IMG/VR virus record: IMGVR_UViG_3300045988_162372
Reading direction: 5' to 3' (one strand)
Length of the DNA: 64,000 nucleotides
Source: a virus
Notes under the pieces: generated by a model
Databases searched by the model: none
Told to the model about the DNA's origin: nothing
What the model saw: the letters and a program-made list of their open reading frames with translations, nothing else
Translations under genes and position numbers: made by a program
Shown here: in pieces, positions 6,391 to 60,909 of the stretch
Position numbering within the stretch: the first letter of the stretch is position 1
Layout: each line of letters starts with the position of its first letter

Positions 6391-6818
6391 TTACTTTTTT
6401 CCGTTTCTTTTGCGTATTCAGTATATGTATCAAAAACATATTCAAAATTTTCTACATAATCAGGGAATTTCAATATTAACTTAGGGTTGTTTAAAACTTT
6501 GTTATAAACTTTCTCTCCGCAACCAACAATATGCGCACACAAATCCCAAAAGCCGTCATCACTAACACTTAGCACTTCACTATTATTCGGAAAAGCATAT
6601 TTATCACCATATTTTAGCAAAGAATATTCTTTCACCTTGTCTTGCAATATTTCTCTAAACGCTTTTGCATAATGTTTTGCTTCAATAATATCGTCATTGG
6701 TTAATTTCATTTTCTTGAAAATCTCTTGTGCCAAACTGTATCTTTTCTTGGTTTGCAACTTGCACATATTTGGCCAATCCAGTTCTTTAACTAATTCCCA
6801 AAATATATTCTTGTTCAT
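6387..6818 (-). CDS. hypothetical protein
   Basis: 143 aa with a 4-nt overlap to the downstream gene. No motif recognised. Confidence 0.5.
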   Translation of the reverse strand: MNKNIFWELVKELDWPNMCKLQTKKRYSLAQEIFKKMKLTNDDIIEAKHYAKAFREILQDKVKEYSLLKYGDKYAFPNNSEVLSVSDDGFWDLCAHIVGCGEKVYNKVLNNPKLILKFPDYVENFEYVFDTYTEYAKETEKSN

Positions 6819-25120: not shown

Positions 25121-25288
25121 TCACTTTTTCTTCTTAATTATAGGAAGATTGCCTTGTCTTTTATAATAACACAGATCACACATATTCCTTGCAACTGTCA
25201 TTCTATATCCTCGAATACTATAATAAGTGTTTGTTACATTGCATATAGGGCATTTCCATGCTTTGTGACAATAATCATTTCTTATCAT
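25121..25288 (-). CDS. small zinc-ribbon protein (55 aa)
   Basis: Hand-translated MIRNDYCHKAWKCPICNVTNTYYSIRGYRMTVARNMCDLCYYKRQGNLPIIKKKK. Overlaps the cca stop by 14 nt and is below the track cutoff. Confidence 0.4.
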   Translation of the reverse strand: MIRNDYCHKAWKCPICNVTNTYYSIRGYRMTVARNMCDLCYYKRQGNLPIIKKKK

Positions 25289-35230: not shown

Positions 35231-36037
35231 TCATTTCTTTATCTTGCTTAAATCCAAAAATGTGGAAGTATTTCCACCAGTAATAACTGTTGGTACTGTT
35301 CCATTCCATTTATCTATCCACATTTGTTGTAGGATTTGTGGAGTTAAGGCTTGCGACTTCAATTCATTGGCTTCCTTTTCTGCTCTTGCCTTTACTAATA
35401 CCTTCTCGGCTTCTGCTTTAACGACTTCCAGCTCGTTTTGCGCTCTTTGGGCTTCTTGAATAGCTGCTGTTTTAGCTGTTACTGCATCCACAATTGACTG
35501 AGGATATTTCAATCCCGATGTTAACTGCTCCAATTGAAAATTTTCTTTACTAAGTGATGCAGATAAATAACTCTCAATAGCTTTTTCGATGCTATCCCTG
35601 TGACTTACAATATAATCAGTCGTAAATGTATTTAATTGTATTCTAAAAGCATCTTTAATATAGTTATAAAGTGTTGTATTTATCACTTCCTTTAAATCCT
35701 TTCTATATTTCTTAAATATCTGAGGTGATTTACCGTCTATGATTTTTAAAGATACTGTAGGATCCACAATAAATTCAGAACCATCTTGTGCATTAATATT
35801 GAATGGTTCATAATCTATTGTTTGAACGTAAGCAGGATATTCATATATCTCAGTTGTTATTGGATTATACCATATAGTTCCAGTTACTAAAGAAACATCA
35901 TCTACTCCCTTGTTCGAACCATACTTATTTACCTTAATTCCCTCATAACCTGCGTCGACACGTTCATAACAGGAACTCAAACTTGCCGTCATTAAAACAG
36001 CACAAATCAAATACAAAATTTTTTTCAATTTCAACAT
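35231..36037 (-). CDS. SPFH/band-7 (prohibitin-like) lipoprotein
   Basis: Start placed at MLKLKKILYLICAVLMTASLSSC (lipobox). The body and C-terminal coiled coil (AQRAQNELEVVKAEAEKVLVKARAEKEA) are typical of SPFH proteins. Confidence 0.6.
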   Translation of the reverse strand: MLKLKKILYLICAVLMTASLSSCYERVDAGYEGIKVNKYGSNKGVDDVSLVTGTIWYNPITTEIYEYPAYVQTIDYEPFNINAQDGSEFIVDPTVSLKIIDGKSPQIFKKYRKDLKEVINTTLYNYIKDAFRIQLNTFTTDYIVSHRDSIEKAIESYLSASLSKENFQLEQLTSGLKYPQSIVDAVTAKTAAIQEAQRAQNELEVVKAEAEKVLVKARAEKEANELKSQALTPQILQQMWIDKWNGTVPTVITGGNTSTFLDLSKIKK

Positions 36038-36069
36038 AATGATAAAACTATTAAAGTTAAAAATAATAT

Positions 36070-36276
36070 TTATTCTTCTTTTCTCCACAAATTTCTTATA
36101 TTAAGAAAACATCTTGTTTTATAAGATACAAATAACATTATCACCATCAAAAATATACCAACAATATTTTCAATTGTATTTGCTGCTGTTATCATCGACA
36201 ATCCACTATTGATCACAAACAATAGTATAATAACCCACACTACAAATAGCAATACGTCTAAAAACTTAATCTTCAT
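36070..36276 (-). CDS. small membrane protein
   Basis: 68 aa with two hydrophobic segments. A further 42-aa membrane ORF lies at 36266-36394. Confidence 0.4.
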   Translation of the reverse strand: MKIKFLDVLLFVVWVIILLFVINSGLSMITAANTIENIVGIFLMVIMLFVSYKTRCFLNIRNLWRKEE

Positions 36277-37933: not shown

Positions 37934-38812
37934 CTATTTAAATTTGTTTATTTTTATGTGCTGCATTTTTTCAATACTAATTTTTATAATCTGTCTTACC
38001 CGTTCCTTTGTAAGCCCAAACATATCAGCAATTGTTTCAGGTGTTCGTTCTTTATGTTCAATTCCAAAGAAGTATTTAACAACTTCCCTATCTCTTTCTG
38101 GAAGATGACTCAATAGGAATTTTATTAAACTGCTTTTACTATCCTCTTCAATATATTCCTCAACATTGTTGCTTGCAGTCTTATTTGCAAATTCCCCAAC
38201 TAATTCATAATCGACATCATCCTCAACAGATGTAGTGAGGGGTGAATCAATGGATTGAATGGTGTATTGCATTAAGTCTTCTTTATTCGGAATAGTAACA
38301 TTATATTCCTTTTCAAGAATTTCAACCAACTCTTCCTCTGTTGGATATCTATTATGTTCTCCAAAGAATTTCTCCCTGCCTTTATTTGCATATTGATATA
38401 CTTTTTGAGCATTTACGGGCTGTATGGTACGTTCTTTTTCTATAAGGTAATTGTTTATATATTTCCTTATCCAAAAAACAGCATACGTGATAAAACGTCC
38501 TTTAAAACTTAAATCGTAATTATCAATTGCAGTCATCAATCCGATATTTGCCTCATTTATCAAATCAAGCAAATTGTTCTGATTTGAAAAACGTCTTGCA
38601 ACAGAAGCGACAAATCTTTGGTTACACATTACCAATTTTTGCTTTGCTTTCTCCCTTTCCTTAGAAGAGTTACTGTTTCTTGCAATTTCTAATAACTTCT
38701 TTTCCTCATGTATGTTTAACAAAGGATAATCTCTTATATCATTAAAATATGCAAGGGTAACTTCATTTCTATTCCAATAATTGCTACTTTGGACTTTACA
38801 ATCTACTATCAT
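37934..38812 (-). CDS. sigma-70 family RNA polymerase sigma factor
   Basis: 292 aa. Region 2 (RFITYAVFWIRKYINNYL) and region 4.2 helix-turn-helix (TPETIADMFGLTKERVRQI). Confidence 0.8.
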   Translation of the reverse strand: MIVDCKVQSSNYWNRNEVTLAYFNDIRDYPLLNIHEEKKLLEIARNSNSSKEREKAKQKLVMCNQRFVASVARRFSNQNNLLDLINEANIGLMTAIDNYDLSFKGRFITYAVFWIRKYINNYLIEKERTIQPVNAQKVYQYANKGREKFFGEHNRYPTEEELVEILEKEYNVTIPNKEDLMQYTIQSIDSPLTTSVEDDVDYELVGEFANKTASNNVEEYIEEDSKSSLIKFLLSHLPERDREVVKYFFGIEHKERTPETIADMFGLTKERVRQIIKISIEKMQHIKINKFK

Positions 38813-40425: not shown

Positions 40426-41547
40426 TTATTTAAAATTTGACGATTTTTTAAGTTCATAAATCTTATTCAGTTCATCGGATGATATTGTTCTTGGCATCTT
40501 CTGTCTGATATAAATGTGTAAATCTCCATATGTTCCATTTGTTTTTGGCATACCAAGTCCTTTTAATATATAGACATTTCCGTCTGTTGTTCCTTTATTG
40601 ATATCAAATTTGTGCATTTTGCCATCAATGCCCTTAACGGATTGCTTCTCTCCTATAATACAGTCTAATACTGGTACATCAATAAGCGTAACCAAATCAT
40701 ACTGATTATTAGGATCAATATCAAAATCTTTATGTTTTGCAATTTTGAATATTATTATAAGGTTTCCGATATCACCATCAGCACGTTCACAATAATTACC
40801 GCCACCTACTAATGGCATATATGCCCCATCACAACATCCTGATGGAATTTGAATATTCTTTGTAACTGTTTTCCTCTCTAAACCAGTTCCATGACAATAA
40901 CTACAAGCATTCACAATATACTCTCCCGTGCCATGACAAGTAGGACAAGTCGTTGTTTGCTGCATTACAGCAAAACCTGTACGAGAAGTCTTTATAATAT
41001 ATCCTTTTCCTTGACAAGTAGGACAAGTTTCCACTCTTCCGTTCTTTCCTAAACCACTTCCATGACAGTGTGAACAAGGTTCGTTTCTTTCGTAAGAAAA
41101 TTTTTTTGTTGCATGATTATATATTTCTTCAAGTGTAACTGTTAAATTTAGTTTAATATCCTTCCCCTTACGCTTCTCATATTTGAAATTTGCCCCATCG
41201 TCAAACGGATTGAACGGATTAAACCCAAAACCTTTGAAAAAATTATCAAAATCCATTGTACTGAAACCACTAAATCCACTATCAAAGGTTGCATTTTCAT
41301 CACCAAACTTATCGTACTTTTCCTTTTTCTCCTTATCCGAAAGGACTCCATAAGCTTCGGCAATTTCTTTGAATTTTTCCTCGGCTTCTTTTTTTTCTTT
41401 CTCAGATTTACCTGCATAACGATCTGGGTGGAATTTAAGGGCTAATTTTTTCCACTTCTTTTTAAGTAAAGAATCGAAATCTTTTCCTTTAAGTTTCTTT
41501 TCTTCATCTGTTATACCTAATATTTTATAATAGTCTTTCTTTGCCAT
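40426..41547 (-). CDS. dnaJ: DnaJ (Hsp40) co-chaperone
   Basis: 373 aa. J-domain (DYYKILGI...HPD) and four CxxCxGxG zinc-finger repeats. Confidence 0.9.
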   Translation of the reverse strand: MAKKDYYKILGITDEEKKLKGKDFDSLLKKKWKKLALKFHPDRYAGKSEKEKKEAEEKFKEIAEAYGVLSDKEKKEKYDKFGDENATFDSGFSGFSTMDFDNFFKGFGFNPFNPFDDGANFKYEKRKGKDIKLNLTVTLEEIYNHATKKFSYERNEPCSHCHGSGLGKNGRVETCPTCQGKGYIIKTSRTGFAVMQQTTTCPTCHGTGEYIVNACSYCHGTGLERKTVTKNIQIPSGCCDGAYMPLVGGGNYCERADGDIGNLIIIFKIAKHKDFDIDPNNQYDLVTLIDVPVLDCIIGEKQSVKGIDGKMHKFDINKGTTDGNVYILKGLGMPKTNGTYGDLHIYIRQKMPRTISSDELNKIYELKKSSNFK

Positions 41548-41568
41548 ATTCTTTACTTTTCAACGCTG

Positions 41569-41576
41569 CAAATTTA
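41569..41576 (-). promoter_or_regulatory. Bacteroidetes -7 promoter box
   Basis: caaattta (TAAATTTG on the - strand), 22 nt upstream of the dnaJ start. Confidence 0.45.
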
Positions 41577-41609
41577 TAGTTTTTATCTGTATTGCCAAAA
41601 TTATTATAG

Positions 41610-42752
41610 TTAATTATTATTAATATCTTTCATTGTTTCGTCGATACTATGATATACTTTTTCCCCGATAAAAAAATCATATTCTTTTAAGTTTGTAAAA
41701 TAAAGTAATTTAATATGATTCTTTCTACATAATTCTAATTTTGTAATATCTCTTTTATATAAATTATTTGTATGTCCTTTATCAAAGAATTTAACATATT
41801 TAAAATGCTGTACCCCTTGACATTCAATAGCTATATTATACTCTGGCAGATAAAAATCTAAACTAAGTTGACTTCTTCCTTGTTTCAAAAAAGAAGGCCT
41901 ATATTGATAATCATAGGCAATATTATTATCAGTTAAATAATTCATCCATTCTTTTTCCATTTTTGATAATTTACATTTAGGACAACCCTTGCCTTGTATG
42001 TGGTCATAAGCAATTTGTTCAAATTCACCATGAATAGGGCAAATAATCTTGACTTTATTATAATATCCGTTATATTGTGTTAATGAATAGTCATATCTAT
42101 TATGGTGAACTGCTCTTGCTTTTGTTATCCAATCCTCATTTGATGTCATTAATTTTTTATAGCTTTCTTCTTTTCTGCATTCAGGACATCCATAACCATT
42201 TAATGCTTTATATGCTAAAACTTCAATTTCTCCATGTATAGGACATATTAATTTTATTTTTTTCTTACTATTGATATAATTTACTTTGGAATAATCATAT
42301 TTGTTACCATATATCTCTTTTAATTTTTCTTTTACTTCTTCATTTGAAAATGAATTTTTACAATGAACAATATGGCTTGCACATTTTTTACAACCATACC
42401 CTAGTAAATGAGAACATGCTTTTTGCCAAAACTCACCATGAATAGGACAAATAATGCAAATTTTATCTGTTATTTTATCAAAATTTACTTTTGAATAATC
42501 GTATTTATCACCATGTTTTTCTCTTGCTCTCTTAATAAAATCTTGATATGTGATTTTTCTTCCATCAACAGAACATTTATGACAGCCGCATCCTTGTAAA
42601 TGGGAATGTGGCAAAACCCAAAATTCTCCATGAATAGGACAAATAATGCAAACTTTTGTTTTACTATTGATATAATTTACTTTGGAATAATCATACTTAT
42701 CGCCATGTATTTCTTTAGCTTTTTTAATAAAAATATCAGTATTCAGTCTCAT
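41610..42752 (-). CDS. homing-endonuclease-like protein: four Zn-ribbon repeats plus a C-terminal Vsr/PD-(D/E)xK-like nuclease
   Basis: 380 aa. Four repeats of GDKYDYSKVN...ICPIHGEF...GxGCxKC, then LSLDFYLPEYNIAIECQGVQHF. More AT-rich than the flanking dnaK and dnaJ. Confidence 0.55.
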   Translation of the reverse strand: MRLNTDIFIKKAKEIHGDKYDYSKVNYINSKTKVCIICPIHGEFWVLPHSHLQGCGCHKCSVDGRKITYQDFIKRAREKHGDKYDYSKVNFDKITDKICIICPIHGEFWQKACSHLLGYGCKKCASHIVHCKNSFSNEEVKEKLKEIYGNKYDYSKVNYINSKKKIKLICPIHGEIEVLAYKALNGYGCPECRKEESYKKLMTSNEDWITKARAVHHNRYDYSLTQYNGYYNKVKIICPIHGEFEQIAYDHIQGKGCPKCKLSKMEKEWMNYLTDNNIAYDYQYRPSFLKQGRSQLSLDFYLPEYNIAIECQGVQHFKYVKFFDKGHTNNLYKRDITKLELCRKNHIKLLYFTNLKEYDFFIGEKVYHSIDETMKDINNN

Positions 42753-42834
42753 AATTCTAATATATTATATATAATAAATATATAATAATTTCAAAAAACT
42801 TGATACTTGAATACTGATATATTAAAATTAACTT

Positions 42835-44766
42835 TTATTTTGCATCTTGAACTTCTGCATCGCTATCATCTGTGGGATTACTCGTATTTGCTGATGTGTG
42901 ATCGCTCGTATTTGAAGCAAAATTTCCAAATATGTCATTAAACGGATTACTTTCACCCGTTTGTTGAGAATTGTTTCCATAAGCCTTAGATGTAATTCCA
43001 TACCACCTATTATTTATATCATTCTCAACATTGGAAAGATTGTTATAATCTGAATTTTTCTTCATATTATTCAGCTCTTCAACCTTTCCGTTAAAGAAAT
43101 CCTTATCCTCTTGTGAAAGTTTGCTATCATATTCTTTCATGCTGTTTTCAGTCTGATAAATCAAACTCTCACAGCGATTTTGTTTATCGGCTTGTTCCTT
43201 GATTTTCTTATCCTCTACCTCATGTTCTTTTGCTTCTTGCTTAATACGCTCGATTTCTTCTTGAGACAAAGAATTATTGTTTTCAATGGTAATATGCTGT
43301 TCCTTACCAGTTGCCTTATCAGTTGCAGAAACAGTCAAAATTCCGTCTGCATTTAAATCAAATTTCACAACAACCTGCGGAACGCCTCTACGTGCTGGCA
43401 TAATACCATCTAAACTAAATATACCTAATGATTTATTATCCTTTGCCATTGTTCTTTCACCCTGTAAGACGTGAATTTGCACACTAGTTTGATTATCCGC
43501 TGCTGTTGTGAAGACTTGTTCTTTTGTGCAAGGAATAGTTGTATTAGCTTCAACCAATGTGGTCATTACGCCACCCATAGTTTCAATACCTAATGTTAAT
43601 GGTGTTACATCAAGTAATAAAATGTCAGAAGCATTCGAACCACCTACGATTGTATTAGCCTGGATTGCAGCACCTTCCGCAACTGCCAGATCAAGATTTG
43701 CACTCTTAATAAGTTTTGTACCAAATTCACTTGTTAGTCTCTCTTGTACATAAGGAATACGGCAAGAACCGCCTACCAAAAGAATGCCATCCAAATCACT
43801 TGCATTGATATTTGCTTTCTTCAAAGCTTCCTTACCACAATTGATAACCTTATCTACATACGGGGCAATCATTTGTTCAAACTTAGCTTTTGTAAGAGTT
43901 GCGGTAAGATGGAATGGGGTATTGTCTTTTACACCAATATAAGGAATGTTAATCTCCGCAGAAGGTGAACTACTTAATTCAATTTTAGCTTTTTCAGCAG
44001 CTTCAATTACACGACTCATGGCTTGGCTATCATTGGTAATGTCTACACCATTTTGTTCTTTACAAACATCAACAAGCCACTGTGCTACTATTTTATCCAG
44101 ATCACTACCACCAAGATATACATCTCCATAAGAAGAAAGTATTTCAACTACTCCATCTGAAATATCAGCAACTGAATTATCAAGCGTAGAACCACCATAG
44201 TCAACTACCATATATTTTCCACCCTTTTTCATATCAATATTAGATGCAAGTAGTGCGGCTGTCGGTTCTGCAATAATTCTCAATACATTTAATCCTGCCA
44301 ATTCACCTGCTTGTTTTGTTGCTTGTCGTTGAGCGTCATTAAAGAATGCAGGAACTGTGATTACAGCGTCAGTAATAGTTTCTCCTGTATAATCCTCTGC
44401 AATTTTTTTCATTTTCTGAAGAATCATAGAAGAGAGTTCTTCTGGTGAATATTCTCTACCTTCAATTGATACACGAGGTACGCCATTTCTATTAACTACA
44501 TCATATTGTACATGCTTGATGTGTTCTTTGATTTCATCATAAGTTCCACCCATAAAACGCTTAATCAATACAACCGTTTCTTTGGGATTTACTACTTTTT
44601 GCCTGTTCGCAGCAGCACCTACTTTACGTTCACCATTCTTAATCATAATCACTGATGGTGTTGTTCTACTACCTTCTTCATTTACGACTACGACTGACTT
44701 GCCATTCTCAATAATGGCGACTTCTGACAGGGTACTACCCAAATCAATTCCTATAGCTTTAGACAT
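42835..44766 (-). CDS. dnaK: DnaK (Hsp70) chaperone
   Basis: 643 aa with IGIDLGST, DYGGSTLD and VLLVGGSCRIP motifs. Full-length Hsp70. Confidence 0.95.
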   Translation of the reverse strand: MSKAIGIDLGSTLSEVAIIENGKSVVVVNEEGSRTTPSVIMIKNGERKVGAAANRQKVVNPKETVVLIKRFMGGTYDEIKEHIKHVQYDVVNRNGVPRVSIEGREYSPEELSSMILQKMKKIAEDYTGETITDAVITVPAFFNDAQRQATKQAGELAGLNVLRIIAEPTAALLASNIDMKKGGKYMVVDYGGSTLDNSVADISDGVVEILSSYGDVYLGGSDLDKIVAQWLVDVCKEQNGVDITNDSQAMSRVIEAAEKAKIELSSSPSAEINIPYIGVKDNTPFHLTATLTKAKFEQMIAPYVDKVINCGKEALKKANINASDLDGILLVGGSCRIPYVQERLTSEFGTKLIKSANLDLAVAEGAAIQANTIVGGSNASDILLLDVTPLTLGIETMGGVMTTLVEANTTIPCTKEQVFTTAADNQTSVQIHVLQGERTMAKDNKSLGIFSLDGIMPARRGVPQVVVKFDLNADGILTVSATDKATGKEQHITIENNNSLSQEEIERIKQEAKEHEVEDKKIKEQADKQNRCESLIYQTENSMKEYDSKLSQEDKDFFNGKVEELNNMKKNSDYNNLSNVENDINNRWYGITSKAYGNNSQQTGESNPFNDIFGNFASNTSDHTSANTSNPTDDSDAEVQDAK

Positions 44767-44880
44767 ATTTTAATTTCTTTAATTTATACTTTATTATTAA
44801 TAATTTATATGAAAATTTTTATAAGAAAGAGAAAGGAACTAAGTTTTGTCTTAATTCCATTCCTCTTATTTCTTTTTTTT

Positions 44881-45282
44881 TTATTTAACAATACTTGTAA
44901 TTGCTTCAAGTTTGTTCTTATATTGCATTACACTATCTTGCAATTGTTTATTTGTTTCACTAAGTTTCTTCACACTTGCCTCAAGCTCTTCAATACGCTT
45001 CTTATAGTCAGTTTCGTTTTTATCGCATCCACACTTGCAAGTGTCGTTTGATTTATCAGAAAACTCTTTTCTCTCATCAAAACCTTCGTTCTTTACACAC
45101 TTACCATTCTTGTATTCCTTGTCACTGTGTGTAACGTGCTTGCCATTTTCGTATTCATCGTAAACACTTCTGAAATAGGTTTCATTTTCTTTCTTATCTT
45201 CATTATCAGAAGATTTTCTGCTCTCACTTACTTCGCTTATTACGTCCATAAAGACATTCAAAAGTTCTTCAAATTTAGTCAT
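44881..45282 (-). CDS. hypothetical coiled-coil protein
   Basis: 133 aa. Not recognisably GrpE. Confidence 0.5.
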   Translation of the reverse strand: MTKFEELLNVFMDVISEVSESRKSSDNEDKKENETYFRSVYDEYENGKHVTHSDKEYKNGKCVKNEGFDERKEFSDKSNDTCKCGCDKNETDYKKRIEELEASVKKLSETNKQLQDSVMQYKNKLEAITSIVK

Positions 45283-45370
45283 ATCTTTATTCTTTTTATC
45301 AAGTTTATAATTTAACTTTCACTATCTATATATACAACAGTCGTGCCAAACTTATTAAACTGACAAAATG

Positions 45371-47491
45371 TCAGAATTTAGAAACAATATCTTTATAATA
45401 AGATTCTTCATTGTCAATATTCCCTCTTGTCTTCTCACTTACCAAATTATAGAATTCCTCCATCTTCGTTTTTGGCAGTACAGAGTTTTCCGAAAGATAT
45501 TTTGCTGATGCTTTCAACATTTTCAACCATTCATAACTTTTGAATGTTGAACGTACTTCATTCCAACATTTATCAATGGTTTGTTTAATTTCTTTATCAA
45601 TATCATCTTGATTAGTTGGTTTAAATATACTTCCACAATCTGTTGATTTTACATCATTAAGATAAGTGGTAACAAGTGAGCTATTACCTAAAAGATAATC
45701 TCTTACATAACGTGAAGCTAATGTAGTTGCCTTACGCAAATCACTAGAAGCACCAGTTGTCAAGTGTTCCCGTCCAAATATGACTTCTTCTGCAACATAT
45801 CCGCCCAATGATACTTTAATCATATCAAGTATTTCTTTTGCAGATTGAGGTCTGTCATTTGGTTTTATTTCAGGCATCATAAATCCACCCGAATTAACGT
45901 CAGTAGTTACTGAACGAACAGATTTAGGCATCTTATGAAACAGTTTTGCATACATTACAAAATGTCCAGATTCATGAACTGCAACTAATGCTTGTGTATC
46001 ATCTTTCTTGCTCTCACGCAAAATTTCAACCCTTAGTTTTTCCTTGAATTTATATCTTCCTACCTTTGTATCATCCTTATACACTTCAGCATAAGTATAT
46101 CCTCTTGAATGGGAATATTTAATAGTGTCAATTGTCTGACCTTCTTTGTAAGCTTTCTCAATAACAAAAGGTAATTTACTTCTTACTATTTCCTGAACTG
46201 TTGAAAATACAGGACGTGTACCATGTGTAGGAAATACACCTTCTTTATACAAGATATTGTTGATACTCTTATCGAAAACAAGTTTGTAACCAGTTTCCCT
46301 TAATGTAACATCAGCATATTTATCCAACTGCAATTGAATAATCTTCTTAAAGGTTTCAGAAGAAAAAGAAGGATAAATCACGTGTATATTCCCCAAACGT
46401 GCAATTTGTTCATTTCTGAAACGTCTTTTCAATGCTTCCTTAATATCTACAATTGTTAACTTTTTAGTCATTTCGTGAAATTGGTCAGGTGACATATCTG
46501 GATTTACATCAAAACTGATACGGTATGCTTCATCCAAATTTGCAATCACAAAGATAACTGAATCTTTGAAATTAAGTGTATAACCTTTCTGATAATATTC
46601 AGAACATTCATTAACCAACATGAATATTTCATCAATATTCATTGTCTTAATCATATTATGGAAATCTATTTTATCAATTTGTTTTCTCGTTCTATCATAA
46701 TACTCATAAATCCTTTCAAGATAATGATCTCTAATAAACATTTCATTACTCGAATTAATACTATCAGCAATTAAAACTGGTCTATCATAACCACAATCAC
46801 CTTCAATATATTCGCCTCCTTTTGGGTTTTTTTCTTCCTTCAGATGAAAATTAAAAAAATTTCCAAATGTTTTCTTTTCATATTCACCAAATCCTTTCAG
46901 ACATTCATCGGCATTTACCCATACTCCATTTTTTAATTGAATAGGTGTCTGTCTGTTGATAATCTCCATATATCTCATAAGACGAAGCATGGAACGTACA
47001 TTGCCATAATTATGCTTCTTCTCAAGAATACCAGTATCTAACAATTCCCAAAATGTTTTCAAACCACTTTTCTTATCCTTTTCGCATCCTGTTTCATCTA
47101 ATGTTGCTGCATATTGGAATTCATCGTAAATGAACATGCGATTTGAACGTTCGCTTGAAAGTTGCTCTTCGATAGTATCTTCGATTTCCCATGCATTCAT
47201 TTCGTCTATCTGTGCGAAGTTAAAATAAACGTAATCTCTTTCGATTTGCAAAAGTTCTGAAATACGTTTAACTAATTGTGTCTTTCCGCAGCCACTCATT
47301 CCAAACAGATTGATAATCATAGGACGTTCCTGCAATTCAGGAAACAAAAACCATGTTCTCAAATTATCCATAACTGTATCAATTTGATAGTCAATACCAA
47401 CAAATTCTTTTTTCAACTGTACAATGGCATCATTAATCAATTGATTTTTAGCGTTAACTTTCTCAATGTCAATCTTAATATTATTTTCCAT
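45371..47491 (-). CDS. soluble AAA+ ATPase / M41 (FtsH-like) zinc metalloprotease fusion
   Basis: 706 aa. Walker A GMSGCGKTQ, HESGH zinc motif and FtsH-like GGYVAEEVIFG...TTGASSDL. No N-terminal transmembrane segments. Confidence 0.7.
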   Translation of the reverse strand: MENNIKIDIEKVNAKNQLINDAIVQLKKEFVGIDYQIDTVMDNLRTWFLFPELQERPMIINLFGMSGCGKTQLVKRISELLQIERDYVYFNFAQIDEMNAWEIEDTIEEQLSSERSNRMFIYDEFQYAATLDETGCEKDKKSGLKTFWELLDTGILEKKHNYGNVRSMLRLMRYMEIINRQTPIQLKNGVWVNADECLKGFGEYEKKTFGNFFNFHLKEEKNPKGGEYIEGDCGYDRPVLIADSINSSNEMFIRDHYLERIYEYYDRTRKQIDKIDFHNMIKTMNIDEIFMLVNECSEYYQKGYTLNFKDSVIFVIANLDEAYRISFDVNPDMSPDQFHEMTKKLTIVDIKEALKRRFRNEQIARLGNIHVIYPSFSSETFKKIIQLQLDKYADVTLRETGYKLVFDKSINNILYKEGVFPTHGTRPVFSTVQEIVRSKLPFVIEKAYKEGQTIDTIKYSHSRGYTYAEVYKDDTKVGRYKFKEKLRVEILRESKKDDTQALVAVHESGHFVMYAKLFHKMPKSVRSVTTDVNSGGFMMPEIKPNDRPQSAKEILDMIKVSLGGYVAEEVIFGREHLTTGASSDLRKATTLASRYVRDYLLGNSSLVTTYLNDVKSTDCGSIFKPTNQDDIDKEIKQTIDKCWNEVRSTFKSYEWLKMLKASAKYLSENSVLPKTKMEEFYNLVSEKTRGNIDNEESYYKDIVSKF

Positions 47492-50009: not shown

Positions 50010-50152
50010 ATTAAGCAGAGAAAGGGTTAAGTTGGTGTCTTATAAACGATTATTACTGGAATCGAACCAGTTACCCTATATACCCAAAATATATGCTCTA
50101 ACCTAATGAGCTAAACAATCCGAAGTAACCAACTTTGTCACTACTGCTTTAT
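50010..50152 (-). ncRNA. clamp module A: bipartite leader/trailer stem enclosing tRNA-Pro
   Basis: Leader ATAAAGCAG-TAGTGA-CAAAGTTGGT-TACTTCG. Trailer ACCAACTT-AACCCTTTCT-CTGCTTAAT. The two helices (8 bp, and 8 of 9 bp) flank the conserved loop. Confidence 0.6.
50047..50120 (-). tRNA. tRNA-Pro (TGG)
   Basis: Acceptor GATTGTT/AATAATC (one G-U pair), D arm GCTC-ATTAGGTTA-GAGC, anticodon arm TATAT-TTTGGGT-ATATA, T arm ACTGG-TTCGATT-CCAGT. Confidence 0.8.
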
Positions 50153-50162
50153 ATTTTAAATA

Positions 50163-50283
50163 AACTCAAAGAAAATTAAGACAGCGTTTTGATTTCGACA
50201 GGAATCGAACCTGTAACACAAACCTTGGAAGGGTTTTTATCTACCATTGATATACGAAGTATCTGTCTTCTCACTATTGAGTT
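50163..50283 (-). ncRNA. clamp module D: bipartite stem enclosing a tRNA-Gly-like body
   Basis: Leader AACTCAA-TAGTGA-GAAGACAG-ATACTTCG. Trailer CTGTCTT-AATTTTCT-TTGAGTT. Both helices are 7 bp. Confidence 0.6.
50190..50261 (-). tRNA. tRNA-Gly (TCC)-like with a defective acceptor stem
   Basis: D arm TATC-AATGGTA-GATA, anticodon arm AAACC-CTTCCAA-GGTTT, T arm ACAGG-TTCGATT-CCTGT, 3' acceptor CGAAATC. The only 5' partner is the clamp's conserved TACTTCG (5 of 7 pairs). Confidence 0.5.
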
Positions 50284-53011: not shown

Positions 53012-53096
53012 AAGATAAAGAAAATCATCAAGAGTTTTGTAAAGTTCCATAATTCTCATATTTTTCACGAAGTATCTCTTGAATCACTATTATCTT
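53012..53096 (-). ncRNA. clamp module E: bipartite stem with only a 33-nt non-tRNA insert
   Basis: Leader AAGATAA-TAGTGA-TTCAAGAG-ATACTTCG. Trailer CTCTTGA-TGATTTTCT-TTATCTT. Both helices are 7 bp. Confidence 0.55.
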
Positions 53097-54083: not shown

Positions 54084-54230
54084 ATGTAAAGAGAACAATT
54101 AAAGTTTGTGTTAAAATTAAAAGTTCTGCAAACTTTCGTGTATACCATTTCACCACATATCCGAAAATTGAGGATATGGTCGGAATCGAACCGACAAAAT
54201 CGAAGTAACAAACTTTTCACTACTTTACAT
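54084..54230 (-). ncRNA. clamp module B enclosing a circularly permuted tRNA-Cys(GCA)-like body
   Basis: - strand order: leader ATGTAAAG-TAGTGA-AAAGTTTGT-TACTTCG; ATTTT; T arm GTCGG-TTCGATT-CCGAC; 3' acceptor CATATCC; 9-nt loop TCAATTTTC; 5' acceptor GGATATG; D arm GTGA-AATGGTAT-ACAC; anticodon arm AAAGT-TTGCAGA-ACTTT; trailer ACAAACTTT-AATTGTTCT-CTTTACAT. Confidence 0.6.
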
Positions 54231-54232
54231 AG

Positions 54233-54304
54233 AGCAGGTGAACAGAATCGAACTGTCATCCTCTGCTTGGAAGGCAGACGCACTAACCGTTGTGCTACAC
54301 CTGC
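54233..54304 (-). tRNA. tRNA-Gly (TCC)
   Basis: Perfect acceptor GCAGGTG/CACCTGC, anticodon arm TCTGC-CTTCCAA-GCAGA, T arm GACAG-TTCGATT-CTGTT. Confidence 0.85.
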
Positions 54305-54311
54305 AAAAAAT

Positions 54312-54454
54312 AACAATAGAGAAACTTCAAAACAGTTTTTTGTATTATCAATTCTTAAAAGGAATTTGCTCTAACCGACTGAGCTAATCTGAATATCAGA
54401 TGATGGACTCGAACCACCGCTTAACGAAGTAACTGTTTTATCACTACTATTGTT
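54312..54454 (-). ncRNA. clamp module C enclosing a circularly permuted tRNA-Lys(TTT)-like body
   Basis: - strand order: leader AACAATAG-TAGTGA-TAAAACAGT-TACTTCG; TTAAGC; T arm GGTGG-TTCGAGT-CCATC; acceptor hairpin ATCTGA-TAT-TCAGAT; TA; D arm GCTC-AGTCGGTTA-GAGC; anticodon arm AATTC-CTTTTAA-GAATT; trailer AACTGTTTT-GAAGTTTCT-CTATTGTT. Confidence 0.6.
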
Positions 54455-54528: not shown

Positions 54529-55212
54529 AATTGTGTTTCCTCTATTATCACAACAGTAGAAACACTTAAATAGTTACTACCATAAAAAATTCATAAAAAT
54601 ATCAATTATGTGTTGTTACACCAAAATCAATATAATGCTGTAAATCCCTTTTCAGTTCAACTGGTCACTTTCATAACCAATAGCTCTACAACATTTGAAC
54701 CGTACTCCTGATTATACAAATTTATTTTAGTTATAAGTGCAAGGTTTTTATATCATCAGTTTGTGTACAAGTTTCTTTTAACATTTATCGGACTAAGTTG
54801 CGTTTCTTCCTATCACCAGAAGGCGTTAATAGATCCCGTGCGCAGATACTCATTATATGATAGCTACTCTCAAGCCTACATTTAATTGATAATTTTTATT
54901 ATATTCCCCTAACAGCACTCCTGTCAATCACTCCATCCTAAAGGTTAGAGCTTGAGCAAAGGGGATTAACCCTTTGACATGGCATATTGACAAAGGCTCT
55001 TACATGGTCTTGGAAACACCAATTCCACTTGCGTTCATAATAGACTGTTGCCCTCTTCAATATTATTAGAAGGTTCAAGATTTCTGGTTTGGGAATTAAG
55101 CTACTGTAAACCTTTGTTCGCTTTTCGTTATATTAAGTTGTTCCAATATGTCAAAGAACTCATCTTGCTTTTATCTTTGTCAAAATCTCAACTGCAACCC
55201 TTGTTTTGATTT
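54529..55212 (-). ncRNA. about 680-nt ORF-free, promoter-driven region (candidate large structured ncRNA)
   Basis: No ORF of 60 aa or more on either strand. It looks less AT-rich than ordinary spacers here. A -7 box sits at 55220-55227, and there are many local helices (for example CAAAGGG-TTAATC-CCCTTTG and GTGTTTC...GAAACAC). Confidence 0.4.
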
Positions 55213-55363: not shown

Positions 55364-55393
55364 ATCTTTTTCAAAGAACTCTTCTTTATTTTG

Positions 55394-55484
55394 TCAGGAT
55401 GGAGGGATTCGAACCCCCGTTTGACTGTTACATCTACTCTCCTGCTCCCAAAGCAGGCATGTTGACCTACTACACCACATCCTG
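55394..55484 (-). tRNA. 91-nt tRNA with Pro anticodon (TGG) and a 22-nt unpaired variable-region insert
   Basis: Perfect acceptor CAGGATG/CATCCTG, D arm GTGT-AGTAGGTCA-ACAT, anticodon arm CCTGC-TTTGGGA-GCAGG, insert AGAGTAGATGTAACAGTCAAAC, T arm GGGGG-TTCGAAT-CCCTC, A73. Confidence 0.55.
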
Positions 55485-59241: not shown

Positions 59242-60909
59242 TTAAATTTCAATCGCTTCTATTTCTTTCAAGATTGCACCAAAGCCCTTAGTATTGGACT
59301 TGATTACATCAAAGATGTTTGCACTCCATCCTGCAATATTCAAAACACGTTCTGGTTTGTAGAACACATTATTTCCCCTGGTGTTGTGTATATCTACTAC
59401 AATGATATTGCAAAGAGGATTAATCTTTCTGAATTGTTTTATCAAATCTTGGAATGTTGCACTTCTTTCAGTTCCACTTGTCCCGTACCAAGACGTAGAA
59501 CCGCTTGAGCCAATTTGACAATCTGAAAAGACAATGATGTTGTCAATTTTCTTCTTTTCTCTTACAGCTTGTCTAAAGAAGTCATAAATACCTTGCTCAG
59601 TTCCTCCACCACAGTTTGCACCTTTATCAAACGACCTCTTGTTGAAATCAAGCAATCTTTGGCTTCTATCAATTTTTACTGGGATAAGTCTGTCACCAAA
59701 CAATCCAATATATACATTCTTCTGACGGTATGCCATCATACTTCCAAACAAATTGCCAATCATAGCAGTAGTTGTTTTGGAAAACGCTGACACTCTTGAA
59801 CTTCCACCACCATCCCCGCGTACCGATCCCGAATGATCAATCAATATTGCAGTATTTCCTTCCAATTCTGGAATATTCTGACAAGAAATCTGCAATGCAT
59901 CTTCAATTGCATCCAGTACCTTTTCCTTCAATTTAGCAAACTCCGTAGCGGTTATTGTCTGATTGTTGTAATCTTCCTCAAATGCAATAGAGGTATCACT
60001 CTTTTTATCAGAAAAACTCATCTTTTCGATTTCCTCGTAAGCTGTTGCGAAACGGAAAGGAAGCAATCTTGAATTCAAGACAGCGGTTTCGTTTGTCAAC
60101 TGTGCGCAAGCATCATCTACGCTCTTAGGCGCATAAAGAATAATGTTTCTCAGATTTCTCAAGAGATTCATTATAGGCATACCCTTAACATTAGACAATA
60201 CGTTTTCGATTGCCTCTTTCTTGGCAGCTTCTTTCTCTTGCACACTCTTCCCTTGTGTCTTTTGTCCTGCCTTTGTCATTTCCTTTTCCAACACCTTTGA
60301 GGCATACAGTCCTGCAAGTGATTCACCATTGACAAGGTTGTGATAAGCCTGTTGGTTTCTCTGTGTCCCCTTTGGATGGAAAAGATTAACCAAATCAAGC
60401 ATTTTAACCTGACGACTGTTCATCTTGTACTTATCAATCTGATAAACATCCAAACGCTCCAATGCAGTCTTAAAACCTTTCTTGATAGCATTAGGTATTT
60501 TTCTGATTTTCTTCAAATCCATCTTGTTCTGAACAGCATAGGCTGACAGAATTTCAGACATATCATCTGGACGAACAACAATCTTATTGTAGAATCTCTT
60601 CGACCATTCTGTACCAGATGCTCTCTTTGCAATTGTTGCTGCAATCAAATGTGATACTGAACGTAGATTTCCTTCATTACGCACGTATAGTGCCAACTTT
60701 GCGGCGAACAAAGGATCCACCTCGTTCAACTTGTTCACAATTCTGTTTACAACTTCCTTTTCTGTCTCGTAATAATGATCACCAGACAAGAATGTTGTCA
60801 TACAAGTTGATACCAACTCTTCTTTTGCTGAAAGTTGATATGCGTTCTCACCCATTGCATTTACTACTGTAGGCTTTACGCCTTCTGCTTTTGCGTTGTA
60901 CTTACTCAT
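59242..60909 (-). CDS. rsr: Ro60 ortholog (TROVE domain + vWA domain)
   Basis: 555 aa. The N-terminal NAMGENAYQLSAKEEL...FYE...DPLFAAKLALYVRNEGNLR is TROVE-like. The C-terminal vWA has the MIDAS motif LIDHSGSVRG. Confidence 0.7.
   Translation of the reverse strand: MSKYNAKAEGVKPTVVNAMGENAYQLSAKEELVSTCMTTFLSGDHYYETEKEVVNRIVNKLNEVDPLFAAKLALYVRNEGNLRSVSHLIAATIAKRASGTEWSKRFYNKIVVRPDDMSEILSAYAVQNKMDLKKIRKIPNAIKKGFKTALERLDVYQIDKYKMNSRQVKMLDLVNLFHPKGTQRNQQAYHNLVNGESLAGLYASKVLEKEMTKAGQKTQGKSVQEKEAAKKEAIENVLSNVKGMPIMNLLRNLRNIILYAPKSVDDACAQLTNETAVLNSRLLPFRFATAYEEIEKMSFSDKKSDTSIAFEEDYNNQTITATEFAKLKEKVLDAIEDALQISCQNIPELEGNTAILIDHSGSVRGDGGGSSRVSAFSKTTTAMIGNLFGSMMAYRQKNVYIGLFGDRLIPVKIDRSQRLLDFNKRSFDKGANCGGGTEQGIYDFFRQAVREKKKIDNIIVFSDCQIGSSGSTSWYGTSGTERSATFQDLIKQFRKINPLCNIIVVDIHNTRGNNVFYKPERVLNIAGWSANIFDVIKSNTKGFGAILKEIEAIEI

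What the first reader, a model, noticed from the sequence alone, without database searches (positions are those of the whole stretch)
54084..54454. Two circularly permuted tRNA-like genes (Cys-GCA and Lys-UUU) with the acceptor stem capped by a loop
In modules B and C the minus-strand order is: variable region, T arm, 3' acceptor strand, short loop, 5' acceptor strand, D arm, complete anticodon stem-loop. The 3' half therefore precedes the 5' half, and the break falls at position 43/44.

The halves match each other:
- B acceptor GGATATG/CATATCC is a perfect 7 bp joined by TCAATTTTC.
- C acceptor is TCAGAT/ATCTGA joined by the triloop TAT.

Canonical tRNA features are kept:
- U8 (B), G18-G19, U33, T loops TTCGATT and TTCGAGT, and the G53-C61 pair.
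- The nucleotide after the 3' acceptor strand fits the identity rules: U73 for Cys in B and A73 for Lys in C.
- B is followed by the same CAA trailer seen after 11 canonical tRNAs here.

Normal-topology Cys(GCA) and Lys(TTT) genes also exist in the island. Permuted tRNA genes are known from a red alga, some green algae and an archaeon. To my knowledge they are not known from bacteria or phages.

Alternatives:
- They mature by circularisation through the flanking clamp, followed by RNase P / 3' processing and CCA addition by the phage-encoded enzyme.
- They stay as non-chargeable tRNA mimics, either Y-RNA-like or as decoys for anticodon nucleases. tRNA-Lys(UUU) is the classic target of such nucleases.
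Basis: partly seen in the sequence, partly recalled or inferred. Interest (0 to 1): 0.9.

Follow-up and report, generated by a model that had tools for sequence, protein, structure and literature searches.

The report
Phage Y RNAs mimicking whole tRNAs
The two "permuted tRNA genes" are real, but they are most likely not genes for working tRNAs: they belong to a known class of small tRNA-imitating RNAs (Y RNAs, partners of the Ro60 protein, which this phage also encodes), here in an unusually complete form that also carries an anticodon arm.

Summary
On the minus strand, module C (54453-54313) and module B (54228-54086) each read: flanking clamp, T arm, loop-capped acceptor hairpin, D arm, 5-bp/7-nt anticodon arm. 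Every helix covaries across 13 relatives.

This architecture is that of YrlA-type Y RNAs, which have been described since 2014 in more than 250 bacteria and 22 phages as resembling circularly permuted tRNAs with closed acceptor stems.

- The window encodes a Ro60/TROVE protein 4.8 kb upstream on the same strand.
- YrlA is the only non-tRNA Rfam family that matches, though below its threshold.
- The clamp carries a conserved signature (G-UAG[U/C]G ... UACUUCG ... UUUCU-C). DNA-pattern searches that did not use Ro60 find this signature next to Ro60 genes in phages and in cultured bacteria.

Maturation into decoding tRNAs is unlikely. There is no bulge-helix-bulge motif, acceptor hairpins are 6-10 bp long, and orthologues carry different anticodons.

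What is new is the complete anticodon arm, which published YrlA lacks. It is seen mostly in phage tRNA arrays. The same clamp also encloses normal-order tRNAs, and in one near-identical pair of those RNAs the only differences lie in the anticodon.

Verdict: a new variant of a known kind.

The parts
54313..54453 (-). Module C: complete Y RNA-like RNA (141 nt), made of a clamp plus a permuted tRNA-like domain with a Lys-type anticodon loop (CUUUUAA)
   Evidence: Sequence; MFE fold; Rfam YrlA 33.3 bits over the full model; model R1/R2 and covariation
54086..54228 (-). Module B: complete Y RNA-like RNA (143 nt), made of a clamp plus a permuted tRNA-like domain with anticodon loop UUGCAGA (GCA)
   Evidence: Sequence; MFE fold; Rfam YrlA 21.2 bits; R1 44.2 bits; covariation
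54431..54453 (-). C, 5' half of the clamp: P1a ACAAUAG (54453-54447), internal loop UAGUGAU (54446-54440), P1b AAAACAGUU (54439-54431). Presumed Ro60-binding side.
   Evidence: P1a and P1b covary, 98-100% paired. G-UAG[U/C]G is shared with Ro60-adjacent RNAs.
54419..54430 (-). C, linker ACUUCGUUAAGC. Together with the preceding U it contains the invariant UACUUCG motif; the final C occupies the position of C48.
   Evidence: Invariant in alignments A2 and A6; function unexplained
54402..54418 (-). C, T arm GGUGG-UUCGAGU-CCAUC
54387..54401 (-). C, acceptor-like hairpin AUCUGA-UAU-UCAGAU (6 bp, triloop)
   Evidence: all 6 pairs covary
54368..54384 (-). C, D arm GCUC-AGUCGGUUA-GAGC, preceded by U8-A9 at 54386-54385
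54350..54366 (-). C, anticodon arm AAUUC-CUUUUAA-GAAUU
   Evidence: all 5 pairs covary, 100% paired
54313..54337 (-). C, 3' half of the clamp: P1b AACUGUUUU (54337-54329), internal loop GAAGUUUCU (54328-54320), P1a CUAUUGU (54319-54313)
   Evidence: The UUUCU-C motif is 76-86% conserved although it was not part of the search pattern.
54208..54228 (-). B, 5' half of the clamp: P1a GUAAAG, loop UAGUGA, P1b AAAGUUUGU
54179..54195 (-). B, T arm GUCGG-UUCGAUU-CCGAC
54156..54178 (-). B, acceptor-like hairpin CAUAUCC-UCAAUUUUC-GGAUAUG (7 bp). The loop begins U-CAA, like the trailers of the canonical tRNAs.
54138..54153 (-). B, D arm GUG-AAAUGGUAUA-CAC
54120..54136 (-). B, anticodon arm AAAGU-UUGCAGA-ACUUU
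54086..54109 (-). B, 3' half of the clamp: P1b ACAAACUUU, loop AAUUGUUCU, P1a CUUUAC
59242..60909 (-). Ro60/Rsr-type protein (TROVE domain, 555 aa), the presumed protein partner
   Evidence: Pfam TROVE, E 2.5e-17; PDB 9KOP/9L5Y (Thermus phage phiLo Ro60), E 4e-10; relatives in 20 phage contigs
53012..53096 (-). Third clamp module: short, with no tRNA-like cargo
   Evidence: R1 39.8 bits; sequence and fold
50163..50283 (-). Fourth clamp module. It encloses a normal-order tRNA-Gly(UCC)-like RNA (50190-50261) whose 5' acceptor strand is the UACUUCG motif (5 of 7 pairs).
50012..50150 (-). Fifth clamp module. It encloses a complete normal-order tRNA-Pro(UGG) (50047-50120).

Best explanation
Modules B and C are two non-coding RNAs of about 140 nt belonging to the Y RNA-like (YrlA) class.

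Architecture:
- The 5' and 3' ends pair into a two-helix clamp. Its conserved core is G-UAG(U/C)G on the 5' side and UUUCU-C on the 3' side. The fold predicts that this core extends P1a past a bulged U.
- By homology and gene neighbourhood, the clamp is the docking site for the phage's own Ro60 protein (59242-60909).
- The rest folds like a tRNA whose acceptor end is closed by a loop, so there is no CCA end to charge.
- Unlike published YrlA, the Ro60 stem sits at the position of the variable arm. This leaves room for a full anticodon stem-loop stacked under the D arm.

Proposed working (inferred, not shown):
1. The RNAs are transcribed as part of the Asn-C-Gly-B-Phe stretch of the phage tRNA array.
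2. They are released by RNase P and 3' processing of the neighbouring tRNAs.
3. They assemble with Ro60.
4. They use the tRNA-shaped domain, anticodon loop included, as a handle or decoy for a host or phage protein that recognises tRNA. Candidates are an anticodon nuclease, a repair enzyme or a modification enzyme.

They are not decoding tRNAs.
For: Shown:
- All five helices are present and covary.
- YrlA is the only non-tRNA Rfam family hitting both modules end to end (33.3 and 21.2 bits).
- A TROVE/Ro60 gene lies 4.8 kb upstream on the same strand.
- The closest relative, L001 (Ro60 78% identical), has the same order: tRNA-Asn, C-type module, tRNA-Gly, B-type module, tRNA-Phe.
- DNA-pattern scans that did not use Ro60 returned modules lying 0.05-0.6 kb from a Ro60 homologue. 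Where tblastn found one, it was on the same strand in 98 of 98 cases. Examples are L021, L028, L031, L034, L035, L037, L041, L088, L097, L134, Clostridium tetanomorphum L317 and Acetivibrio straminisolvens L290.
- Cargo-less clamp modules sit immediately 5' of Ro60 in L011, L013, L015, L016 and L017.
- The 3' motif UUUCU-C is 76-86% conserved although it was not in the search pattern.
- Relatives of this clade score 33-45 bits on YrlA.

From the literature:
- YrlA has the order T arm, closed acceptor hairpin, D arm, with the ends paired into the Ro60-binding stem. It occurs in phages (PMC4201824; bioRxiv 10.1101/312249).
- Phage Ro60 binds phage Y RNA-like RNAs (PMC12135203).

Support for the anticodon loop mattering:
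- Most of the roughly 12 seven-nucleotide loops have U at position 33 and a purine at position 37.
- The normal-order clamp RNAs in L009 and L019 differ at only 2 of 122 nt, and both differences are in the anticodon.
Against: - No experiment links this Ro60 to these RNAs. Binding is inferred from synteny and a conserved motif.
- The motif does not match the published GNCGAA(N)G literally.
- Both modules fall well below Rfam's YrlA gathering score of 69 bits.
- In this window the modules are 4.8 kb from Ro60, not adjacent to it.
- Published YrlA lacks an anticodon loop.
- The same clamp also encloses an apparently fully functional tRNA-Pro (50047-50120). The clamp could therefore also, or instead, be a tRNA-precursor element.
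- The partner of the tRNA-like domain is unknown, even for canonical YrlA.
Confidence: 0.75

Rival explanations
1. They are true circularly permuted tRNA genes. The clamp would be cut and ligated to join positions 43 and 44. RNase P and 3' processing would then open the acceptor loop, the phage CCA-adding enzyme would add CCA, and working tRNA-Lys and tRNA-Cys would result.
For: - The permuted order is present, with intact D, T and anticodon arms.
- B has a 7-bp acceptor, U73 and a CAA trailer.
- The phage encodes a CCA-adding-type nucleotidyltransferase (25275-26672) and an RlaP RNA-repair nucleotidyltransferase (27566-28897).
- M. smegmatis YrlA is cleaved by RNase P and receives CCA (PMC4201824).
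Against: - The clamp is not a bulge-helix-bulge motif (7 x 9 nt internal loop).
- No splicing endonuclease or RNA ligase was found among the 30 ORFs scanned with Pfam.
- C has only a 6-bp acceptor closed by a triloop.
- Acceptor hairpins in relatives are 6-10 bp.
- Anticodons differ between syntenic orthologues.
- Many clade members lack the anticodon arm or carry a tetraloop in its place.
- Canonical tRNA-Lys(UUU) and tRNA-Cys(GCA) already exist in the island.
Confidence: 0.04
2. The clamp is a Ro60-independent processing or stability element of the tRNA-array transcript, for example a double-strand-specific nuclease site or a leader-trailer pairing. On this view B and C are evolutionary debris from tRNA-tRNA recombination and have no function of their own.
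For: - The same clamp encloses a complete tRNA-Pro and a tRNA-Gly-like RNA in normal order.
- B's acceptor loop looks like a tRNA trailer fused to the next tRNA's leader.
- This fits the proposed origin of YrlA from dimeric tRNA transcripts (bioRxiv 10.1101/312249).
Against: - The modules are conserved, with compensatory changes in every helix, across phages whose Ro60 proteins are only 50-78% identical.
- The clamp signature tracks Ro60 genes in bacteria that have no tRNA array at the site.
- Cargo-less clamps sit directly beside Ro60.
Confidence: 0.08
3. Module B only: RNase P opens the 7-bp acceptor hairpin, as in M. smegmatis YrlA. After trimming and CCA addition this gives a two-piece, clamp-held tRNA-like RNA with a free CCA end, which might even be charged. 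This reading is a refinement of the best explanation and is compatible with Ro60 binding.
For: - B has a 7-bp acceptor on a 5-bp T stem, a 9-nt loop starting U-CAA, and G at position +1.
- There is a precedent in PMC4201824.
- The window encodes a CCA-adding enzyme.
Against: - B-type orthologues have 6-8-bp acceptor hairpins with loops as short as 3 nt, so a cleavable geometry is not conserved.
- The anticodon identity is not conserved.
Confidence: 0.1

Closest known systems
YrlA (Y RNA-like A; Rfam RF02553), the Ro60/Rsr-bound tRNA mimic of Salmonella, Mycobacterium and more than 250 bacteria and phages
   Same: - The order T arm, loop-closed acceptor-like hairpin of variable length, UA, D arm.
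- The conserved elbow nucleotides.
- The 5' and 3' ends paired into a stem with an internal loop.
- Location on the same strand as a Ro60 gene.
- Occurrence in phages, and sometimes next to tRNA genes.
   Different: - Published YrlA 'lacks the anticodon loop', and its Ro60 stem replaces the anticodon stem. B and C have a separate, covarying 5-bp/7-nt anticodon arm, and the Ro60 stem emerges where a variable arm would.
- The stem motif is UAG(U/C)GA rather than GNCGAA.
- The Rfam scores are 33 and 21 bits against a threshold of 69.
- The modules are embedded in a phage tRNA array 4.8 kb from Ro60.
Circularly permuted tRNA genes of Cyanidioschyzon merolae, some green algae and Thermofilum pendens
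   Same: The 3' half is encoded before the 5' half, the acceptor stem is initially closed by a loop, and leader and trailer pair with each other.
   Different: - Those precursors carry a bulge-helix-bulge motif, which is cut by the splicing endonuclease, ligated into a circle and then opened to give real tRNAs with fixed identities.
- Here there is no such motif, acceptor lengths vary, and anticodons are not conserved.
- The pairing stem is a conserved Ro60-associated element.
Phage Y RNA-like RNAs Yrl1 and Yrl2 of Thermus phage phiLo, and the YrlA of mycobacteriophages, CcrColossus and Bacillus phage G
   Same: They are phage-encoded, lie next to a phage Ro60, and have a stem-bulge-stem Ro60-binding module. 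The window's Ro60 is homologous to phiLo Ro60.
   Different: phiLo Yrl1 and Yrl2 are described as stem-bulge-stem RNAs with a CGAA motif. No full tRNA-like domain with an anticodon arm, and no placement inside a tRNA array, is described for them.
Deinococcus radiodurans Yrn1
   Same: It is a Y RNA that can be drawn with a T arm and a potential 5-bp 'anticodon arm'.
   Different: - The Yrn1 loop has 6 nt.
- No clear D arm has been shown.
- The topology differs: the hairpin between the T-like and D-like elements occupies the anticodon position.
- Chen et al. consider Yrn1 to have evolved independently.
Class II tRNAs (long variable arm)
   Same: A helix projects between position 44 and the T stem, exactly where the clamp of B and C emerges. 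A five-helix tRNA shape is therefore sterically plausible.
   Different: In B and C that helix is open (it holds the 5' and 3' ends) and the acceptor is closed, the reverse of a tRNA.

Membership tests
YrlA-type bacterial/phage Y RNA | Core order: T arm, closed acceptor-like hairpin, two-nucleotide linker, D arm, with tRNA elbow nucleotides (GG in the D loop, UUCGA in the T loop, G53-C61) | tested here: met
   covariation of the T, acceptor and D helices
YrlA-type bacterial/phage Y RNA | 5' and 3' ends pair into a stem with an internal loop or bulge (the Ro60-binding module) | tested here: met
   P1a and P1b are 98-100% paired, and 14 of their 15 pairs change on both sides
YrlA-type bacterial/phage Y RNA | GNCGAA(N)G motif near the 5' end (PMC4201824) | tested here: inconclusive
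   B and C have G-UAGUGA. Relatives have UAGCGA or UAGCGG. Only a (C/U)GA core is shared, and the match is not literal.
YrlA-type bacterial/phage Y RNA | Encoded near a Ro60/TROVE gene and on the same strand | tested here: met
   The TROVE ORF 59242-60909 is on the same strand, 4.8 kb upstream. Clade relatives lie 0.05-0.6 kb away and on the same strand in 98 of 98 cases.
YrlA-type bacterial/phage Y RNA | Reaches the Rfam RF02553 gathering score (69 bits) | tested here: not met
   33.3 bits for C and 21.2 bits for B. Ro60-adjacent bacterial relatives of the same clade also reach only 33-45 bits.
YrlA-type bacterial/phage Y RNA | No anticodon loop; the Ro60 stem takes the place of the anticodon stem (bioRxiv 10.1101/312249) | tested here: not met
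   B and C carry a separate 5-bp/7-nt arm one nucleotide after the D stem. This is the main departure from the family.
YrlA-type bacterial/phage Y RNA | Physically bound by Ro60; carries tRNA modifications (pseudouridine 55, dihydrouridine) | not testable with these tools
   Needs RIP or EMSA and modification mapping
Circularly permuted tRNA genes (processed to mature tRNA) | 3' half precedes 5' half, and the halves are complementary in the acceptor stem | tested here: met
Circularly permuted tRNA genes (processed to mature tRNA) | Bulge-helix-bulge motif at the leader-trailer junction (3-nt bulge, 4-bp helix, 3-nt bulge) | tested here: not met
   The clamp is 6-7 bp, then a 6-7 x 9 nt internal loop, then 9 bp
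Circularly permuted tRNA genes (processed to mature tRNA) | Canonical 7-bp acceptor stem and a fixed anticodon identity conserved among orthologues | tested here: not met
   C has 6 bp and relatives have 6-10 bp. Anticodons: UUU versus GUA for C-type; GCA, AAG, AGG or UGA for B-type.
Circularly permuted tRNA genes (processed to mature tRNA) | Splicing endonuclease and RNA ligase available | tested here: inconclusive
   None was found among the 30 window ORFs scanned with Pfam. The other ORFs, the rest of the phage and the host were not examined.
Canonical tRNA (RF00005) | Detected by ARAGORN or reaches the Rfam gathering score | tested here: not met
   ARAGORN makes no call. The best partial Rfam tRNA hit is 27.2 bits against a gathering score of 29.
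Permuted (two-piece) tmRNA | Match to the tmRNA covariance models | tested here: not met
   12.9-17.8 bits against gathering scores of 47-84, over the T arm and acceptor only

The most novel reading that the evidence does not exclude
Phage Ro60 particles may display interchangeable, fast-evolving anticodon stem-loops on a common Y-RNA scaffold. The scaffold carries either a permuted tRNA body (B, C) or a normal-order one (50283-50163, 50150-50012). The system would act as a programmable set of tRNA decoys or baits aimed at anticodon-specific host factors such as anticodon nucleases. Ro60, and any exonuclease or repair enzyme it recruits, would act on whatever the bait captures. If so, the long-unknown partner of the YrlA tRNA-like domain would, in phages, be a tRNA-targeting defence protein.
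Probability: 0.25. Interest if true: 0.85.

Novelty: new variant of a known kind. Interest (0 to 1): 0.55.

Why it matters
What the tRNA-like half of bacterial Y RNAs binds has been an open question since 2014. Three observations here point to the anticodon loop as the working end and suggest direct experiments:
- These versions keep a complete anticodon arm.
- They sit in phage tRNA arrays.
- Their anticodons change between otherwise similar copies.

B and C also look like the intermediates predicted by the proposal that YrlA arose from dimeric tRNA transcripts: a T arm, a trailer/leader loop, then a D arm and anticodon arm.

There is a practical consequence too. Some "tRNA genes" annotated next to Ro60 in deposited crAss-like phage genomes are clamp-embedded Y RNA-like RNAs, for example the tRNA-Lys just upstream of Ro60 in csAssE-Sib. 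Counts of phage tRNAs, and codon-usage arguments based on them, may therefore be inflated.

Tried and rejected
- A plain MAFFT alignment of nine modules was not structurally consistent. I replaced it with a single-sequence covariance model and model-guided alignments.
- Rfam at gathering thresholds found only tRNAs in 14 related loci. The link to YrlA appears only below threshold.
Only the loci passing a clamp-pairing filter were used.
- Four hits of the first pattern scan (L022, L023, L029, L036) lie in G+C-rich, apparently coding DNA, have no clamp and no Ro60, and were dropped.
- A subset of genome hits (Chitinophagaceae and Saprospiraceae, TTCGGGACGAAGGGG...) match the pattern but show no clamp within 175 nt. 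They were not counted.
- The promoter and terminator scan showed no enrichment over shuffles.
- A blastn search against deposited phage genomes matched only the canonical tRNAs, not the modules.
- The reviews PMC10870794 and PMC6047535 are not held, and no supplement of Chen et al. 2014 is held.
- I considered a kink-turn in the clamp and rejected it: there is no GA on the 3' strand of B.
- I considered a UUCG tetraloop reading of UACUUCG and rejected it: no closing pair is conserved.
- I considered whether B and C are merely a dimeric-tRNA junction artefact and rejected it. The two acceptor strands pair with each other, and the outer halves of the supposed tRNAs are absent.
Full report
**What is there**

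All features below are on the minus strand. The finding's interval holds two elements separated by a canonical tRNA-Gly(UCC) (54304-54232). They are flanked by tRNA-Asn (54528-54457) and tRNA-Phe (54072-53997).

Module C (54453-54313) reads, 5' to 3':
- P1a: ACAAUAG
- internal loop: UAGUGAU
- P1b: AAAACAGUU
- linker: ACUUCGUUAAGC
- T arm: GGUGG-UUCGAGU-CCAUC
- acceptor hairpin: AUCUGA-UAU-UCAGAU
- UA
- D arm: GCUC-AGUCGGUUA-GAGC
- A
- anticodon arm: AAUUC-CUUUUAA-GAAUU
- a 12-nt A/U-rich linker
- P1b': AACUGUUUU
- loop: GAAGUUUCU
- P1a': CUAUUGU

Module B (54228-54086) has the same plan. Its acceptor is 7 bp (CAUAUCC/GGAUAUG) closed by UCAAUUUUC. Its D stem is 3 bp. Its anticodon arm is AAAGU-UUGCAGA-ACUUU.

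The free-energy folds of the whole inter-tRNA spacers return exactly these five helices. A strict descriptor for this order finds 2 sites in the window. In 100 dinucleotide-preserving shuffles the mean was 0.01 sites. ARAGORN and the Rfam tRNA model do not call either module.

**It is conserved**

A TROVE-domain (Ro60) protein is encoded at 59242-60909 on the same strand. It is homologous to the solved Ro60 of Thermus phage phiLo.

Its relatives occur in 20 IMG/VR phage contigs. The closest, L001 (78% identity), has the same order as the window: tRNA-Asn, a C-type module, tRNA-Gly, a B-type module, tRNA-Phe.

I built a covariance model from C and used it to align 13 permuted modules from 11 sources. 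On that alignment:
- 97.4% of cells are paired (62.8% in shuffles).
- 30 of 36 pairs change on both sides.
- None of 500 shuffles, and no slid register, comes close.
- The anticodon stem is 100% paired, with compensatory changes at all five pairs.

**What it is**

The Rfam scan gives YrlA (RF02553) as the only non-tRNA family matching both modules over the full model. The scores are 33.3 bits for C and 21.2 bits for B, against a gathering score of 69.

YrlA is the Ro60-bound Y RNA of bacteria. Chen et al. found it next to Ro60 in 254 bacterial species and 22 phages. They showed the order T arm, closed 'acceptor' hairpin, D arm, with the ends paired into the Ro60-binding stem (PMC4201824). [quoted passage not shown] The general architecture is therefore already known in bacteria and phages, contrary to the finding.

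**The link to Ro60 does not rest on the weak Rfam score**

The clamp has a conserved signature: G-UAG(U/C)G in the 5' loop, UACUUCG after P1b, and UUUCU-C in the 3' loop.

I scanned viral, metagenomic and genomic collections for the 5' part of this signature plus the T loop, without using Ro60.
- Wherever tblastn could see a Ro60 homologue in the fetched DNA, it was on the same strand in 98 of 98 cases, at a median distance of 0.4-0.6 kb.
- The hits include cultured bacteria. In Clostridium tetanomorphum the RNA is at 6481-6616 and Ro60 at 6728-7930 of L317. Acetivibrio straminisolvens (L290) is another example.
- The 3' motif, which was not in the pattern, is 76-86% conserved.
- These Ro60-adjacent relatives themselves score only 33-45 bits on Rfam YrlA. 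B and C therefore belong to a divergent YrlA clade that the Rfam threshold misses.
- Short clamp modules with no cargo lie directly 5' of Ro60 in L011, L013, L015, L016 and L017.

**Why they are not pre-tRNAs**

- The clamp is 6-7 bp, then a 6-7 x 9 nt internal loop, then 9 bp. It is not a bulge-helix-bulge motif.
- C's acceptor is 6 bp with a triloop. Across relatives the acceptor hairpin is 6-10 bp with loops of 3-16 nt. True tRNAs keep 7 bp.
- Anticodons are not conserved at orthologous positions. C-type modules carry UUU (window) or GUA (L001). B-type modules carry GCA (window, L017, L251), AAG (L001), AGG (L006) or UGA (L024, L030, L192).
- Many clade members have no arm after the D stem (L034, L035, L039 and the Clostridium RNAs). 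Others have a stem capped by a GCAA or UUCG tetraloop (L021, L207, L269).
- Canonical tRNA-Lys(UUU) and tRNA-Cys(GCA) already exist in the island.
- B alone might be opened by RNase P, as M. smegmatis YrlA is (PMC4201824). That geometry is not conserved in its orthologues.

**What is new**

1. Published YrlA lacks a complete anticodon arm. B and C have one, placed one nucleotide after the D stem. The Ro60 stem then emerges where a class II variable arm would.
   - After excluding dimeric-tRNA false hits, roughly 10-18 of 149 well-formed permuted modules have a 5-bp/7-nt arm.
   - Five contigs carrying such arms were scanned for tRNA genes (L032, L185, L192, L251, L261), and all five lie in dense phage-type tRNA arrays.
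   - Most of the seven-nucleotide loops have U33 and a purine at position 37.
2. The clamp is a reusable scaffold. The window has five clamp modules:
   - C (54453-54313);
   - B (54228-54086);
   - a cargo-less one (53096-53012);
   - one enclosing a normal-order tRNA-Gly(UCC)-like RNA whose 5' acceptor strand is the UACUUCG motif (50283-50163);
   - one enclosing a complete tRNA-Pro(UGG) (50150-50012).

   All four tRNA-like cargos duplicate an anticodon that a canonical tRNA of the island also carries.
3. Among normal-order clamp modules, L009 and L019 differ at 2 of 122 nt. Both differences are in the anticodon (GAU versus UCU). L012 has UUU. This is one clean case, not a statistic, but it points to the anticodon as the part under selection.

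**Mechanism**

Shown:
- the structure and its conservation;
- the association of the clamp signature with Ro60 genes.

Inferred:
- The RNAs are released from the array transcript by processing of the flanking tRNAs.
- They bind the phage Ro60 through the clamp.
- They present a tRNA-shaped domain, anticodon loop included, to a tRNA-recognising protein.

The window also encodes a CCA-adding-type enzyme (25275-26672), an RlaP RNA-repair nucleotidyltransferase (27566-28897; see PMC12776372) and a Band-7 protein (35231-36088). This fits the RNA-repair and tRNA-conflict setting in which Ro60 and YrlA are usually discussed (PMC7824862; bioRxiv 10.1101/312249). Decoy or bait for anticodon nucleases is the most interesting specific reading, but nothing here tests it.

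**Context**

By its Ro60, the phage is nearest to uncultured gut crAss-like phages: cr111_1 (62% identity) and csAssE-Sib (56%). In csAssE-Sib, a clamp module (L394 11785-11914) lies immediately 5' of the 'Ro sixty-related protein' and contains the gene annotated as an ordinary tRNA-Lys. A 2024 preprint had already guessed that some tRNA genes next to a Ro60-like protein of coliphage Bas63 might be Y RNAs (PMC11482910). The present loci give that idea a concrete sequence signature.

**Verdict**

Interest is moderate to good, because the variant bears on what the tRNA-like domain of Y RNAs is for.

Noticed in passing
window 50163-50283 and 50012-50150 (minus strand): Two more clamp modules enclose normal-order tRNAs that ARAGORN calls as tRNA-Gly(UCC) and tRNA-Pro(UGG). 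In the Gly case the conserved UACUUCG motif serves as the 5' acceptor strand (5 of 7 pairs). The Pro case is a complete tRNA with a 7-bp acceptor nested inside the clamp.
   Followed up: partly
window 53012-53096 (minus strand): A short clamp module (85 nt) with no tRNA-like cargo, resembling the short modules found immediately 5' of Ro60 in L011, L013, L015, L016 and L017.
   Followed up: partly
L009 5916-6037, L019 1463-1584, L012 8665-8787: Orthologous normal-order clamp modules. L009 and L019 differ at exactly 2 of 122 nt, and both differences are in the anticodon (GAU versus UCU). L012 has UUU plus a few other changes.
   Followed up: partly
L394 11785-11914 (csAssE-Sib, OR575929); L393 9934-10992 (cr111_1, MT774387): In the deposited csAssE-Sib genome, a clamp-embedded tRNA-like RNA just upstream of Ro60 is annotated as an ordinary tRNA gene (tRNA-Lys). 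In cr111_1 the Ro60 gene is annotated 'hypothetical protein', and a short cargo-less clamp module (L393 11259-11326) lies upstream of it. Whether the tRNA-Arg and tRNA-Gln annotated further upstream in cr111_1 sit inside clamps was not shown.
   Followed up: partly
window 9027-10232 and 11206-13848 (minus strand): A reverse transcriptase (RVT_1) lies next to an 880-aa DUF285/leucine-rich-repeat protein. This may be a diversity-generating retroelement. Template and variable repeats were not looked for.
   Followed up: no
window 25275-26672, 27566-28897, 35231-36088, 40426-47491 (minus strand): The window encodes a CCA-adding/poly(A)-polymerase-type enzyme with an HD domain, an RlaP RNA-repair nucleotidyltransferase, a Band-7/SPFH protein, and a chaperone/protease set (DnaJ, DnaK, FtsH-like AAA-M41). 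This is an RNA-repair and proteostasis toolkit in the same phage.
   Followed up: no
window 55393-55484 (minus strand): The second tRNA-Pro(UGG) is 92 nt long, with a variable region of about 21 nt (GAGUAGAUGUAACAGUCAAAC). That is unusual for a class I tRNA.
   Followed up: no
window 54898-54927 (minus strand): A perfect sigma-70 consensus (TTGACA, 18 nt, TATAAT) lies 370 nt upstream of tRNA-Asn, at the head of the Asn-C-Gly-B-Phe stretch. The phage also encodes a sigma-70-like factor (37934-38812). Promoter-like sites overall are not enriched over shuffles.
   Followed up: no
L008 17282-17684; L192 1265-1662: Related phage contigs carry tmRNA genes (tags GKKTYALAA and GETTYALAA) within the same tRNA/Y-RNA arrays.
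   Followed up: no
L285, L287, L301, L331, L332, L336 (Chitinophagaceae and Saprospiraceae genome contigs): A recurrent sequence, ...UACUUCGGGACGAAGGGGUCGCUGGUUCGAAUCCAGUCAUCCCGAC..., matches the search pattern but shows no clamp within 175 nt. It may be a different tRNA-like RNA or a variant with a long variable arm.
   Followed up: no
L297 3031-6278 (contig binned as a Candidatus Peribacteria genome): Six clamp modules lie within about 3.3 kb, one with the anticodon-like loop CUCAUAA. This looks like a phage-type array inside a metagenome-assembled genome.
   Followed up: no
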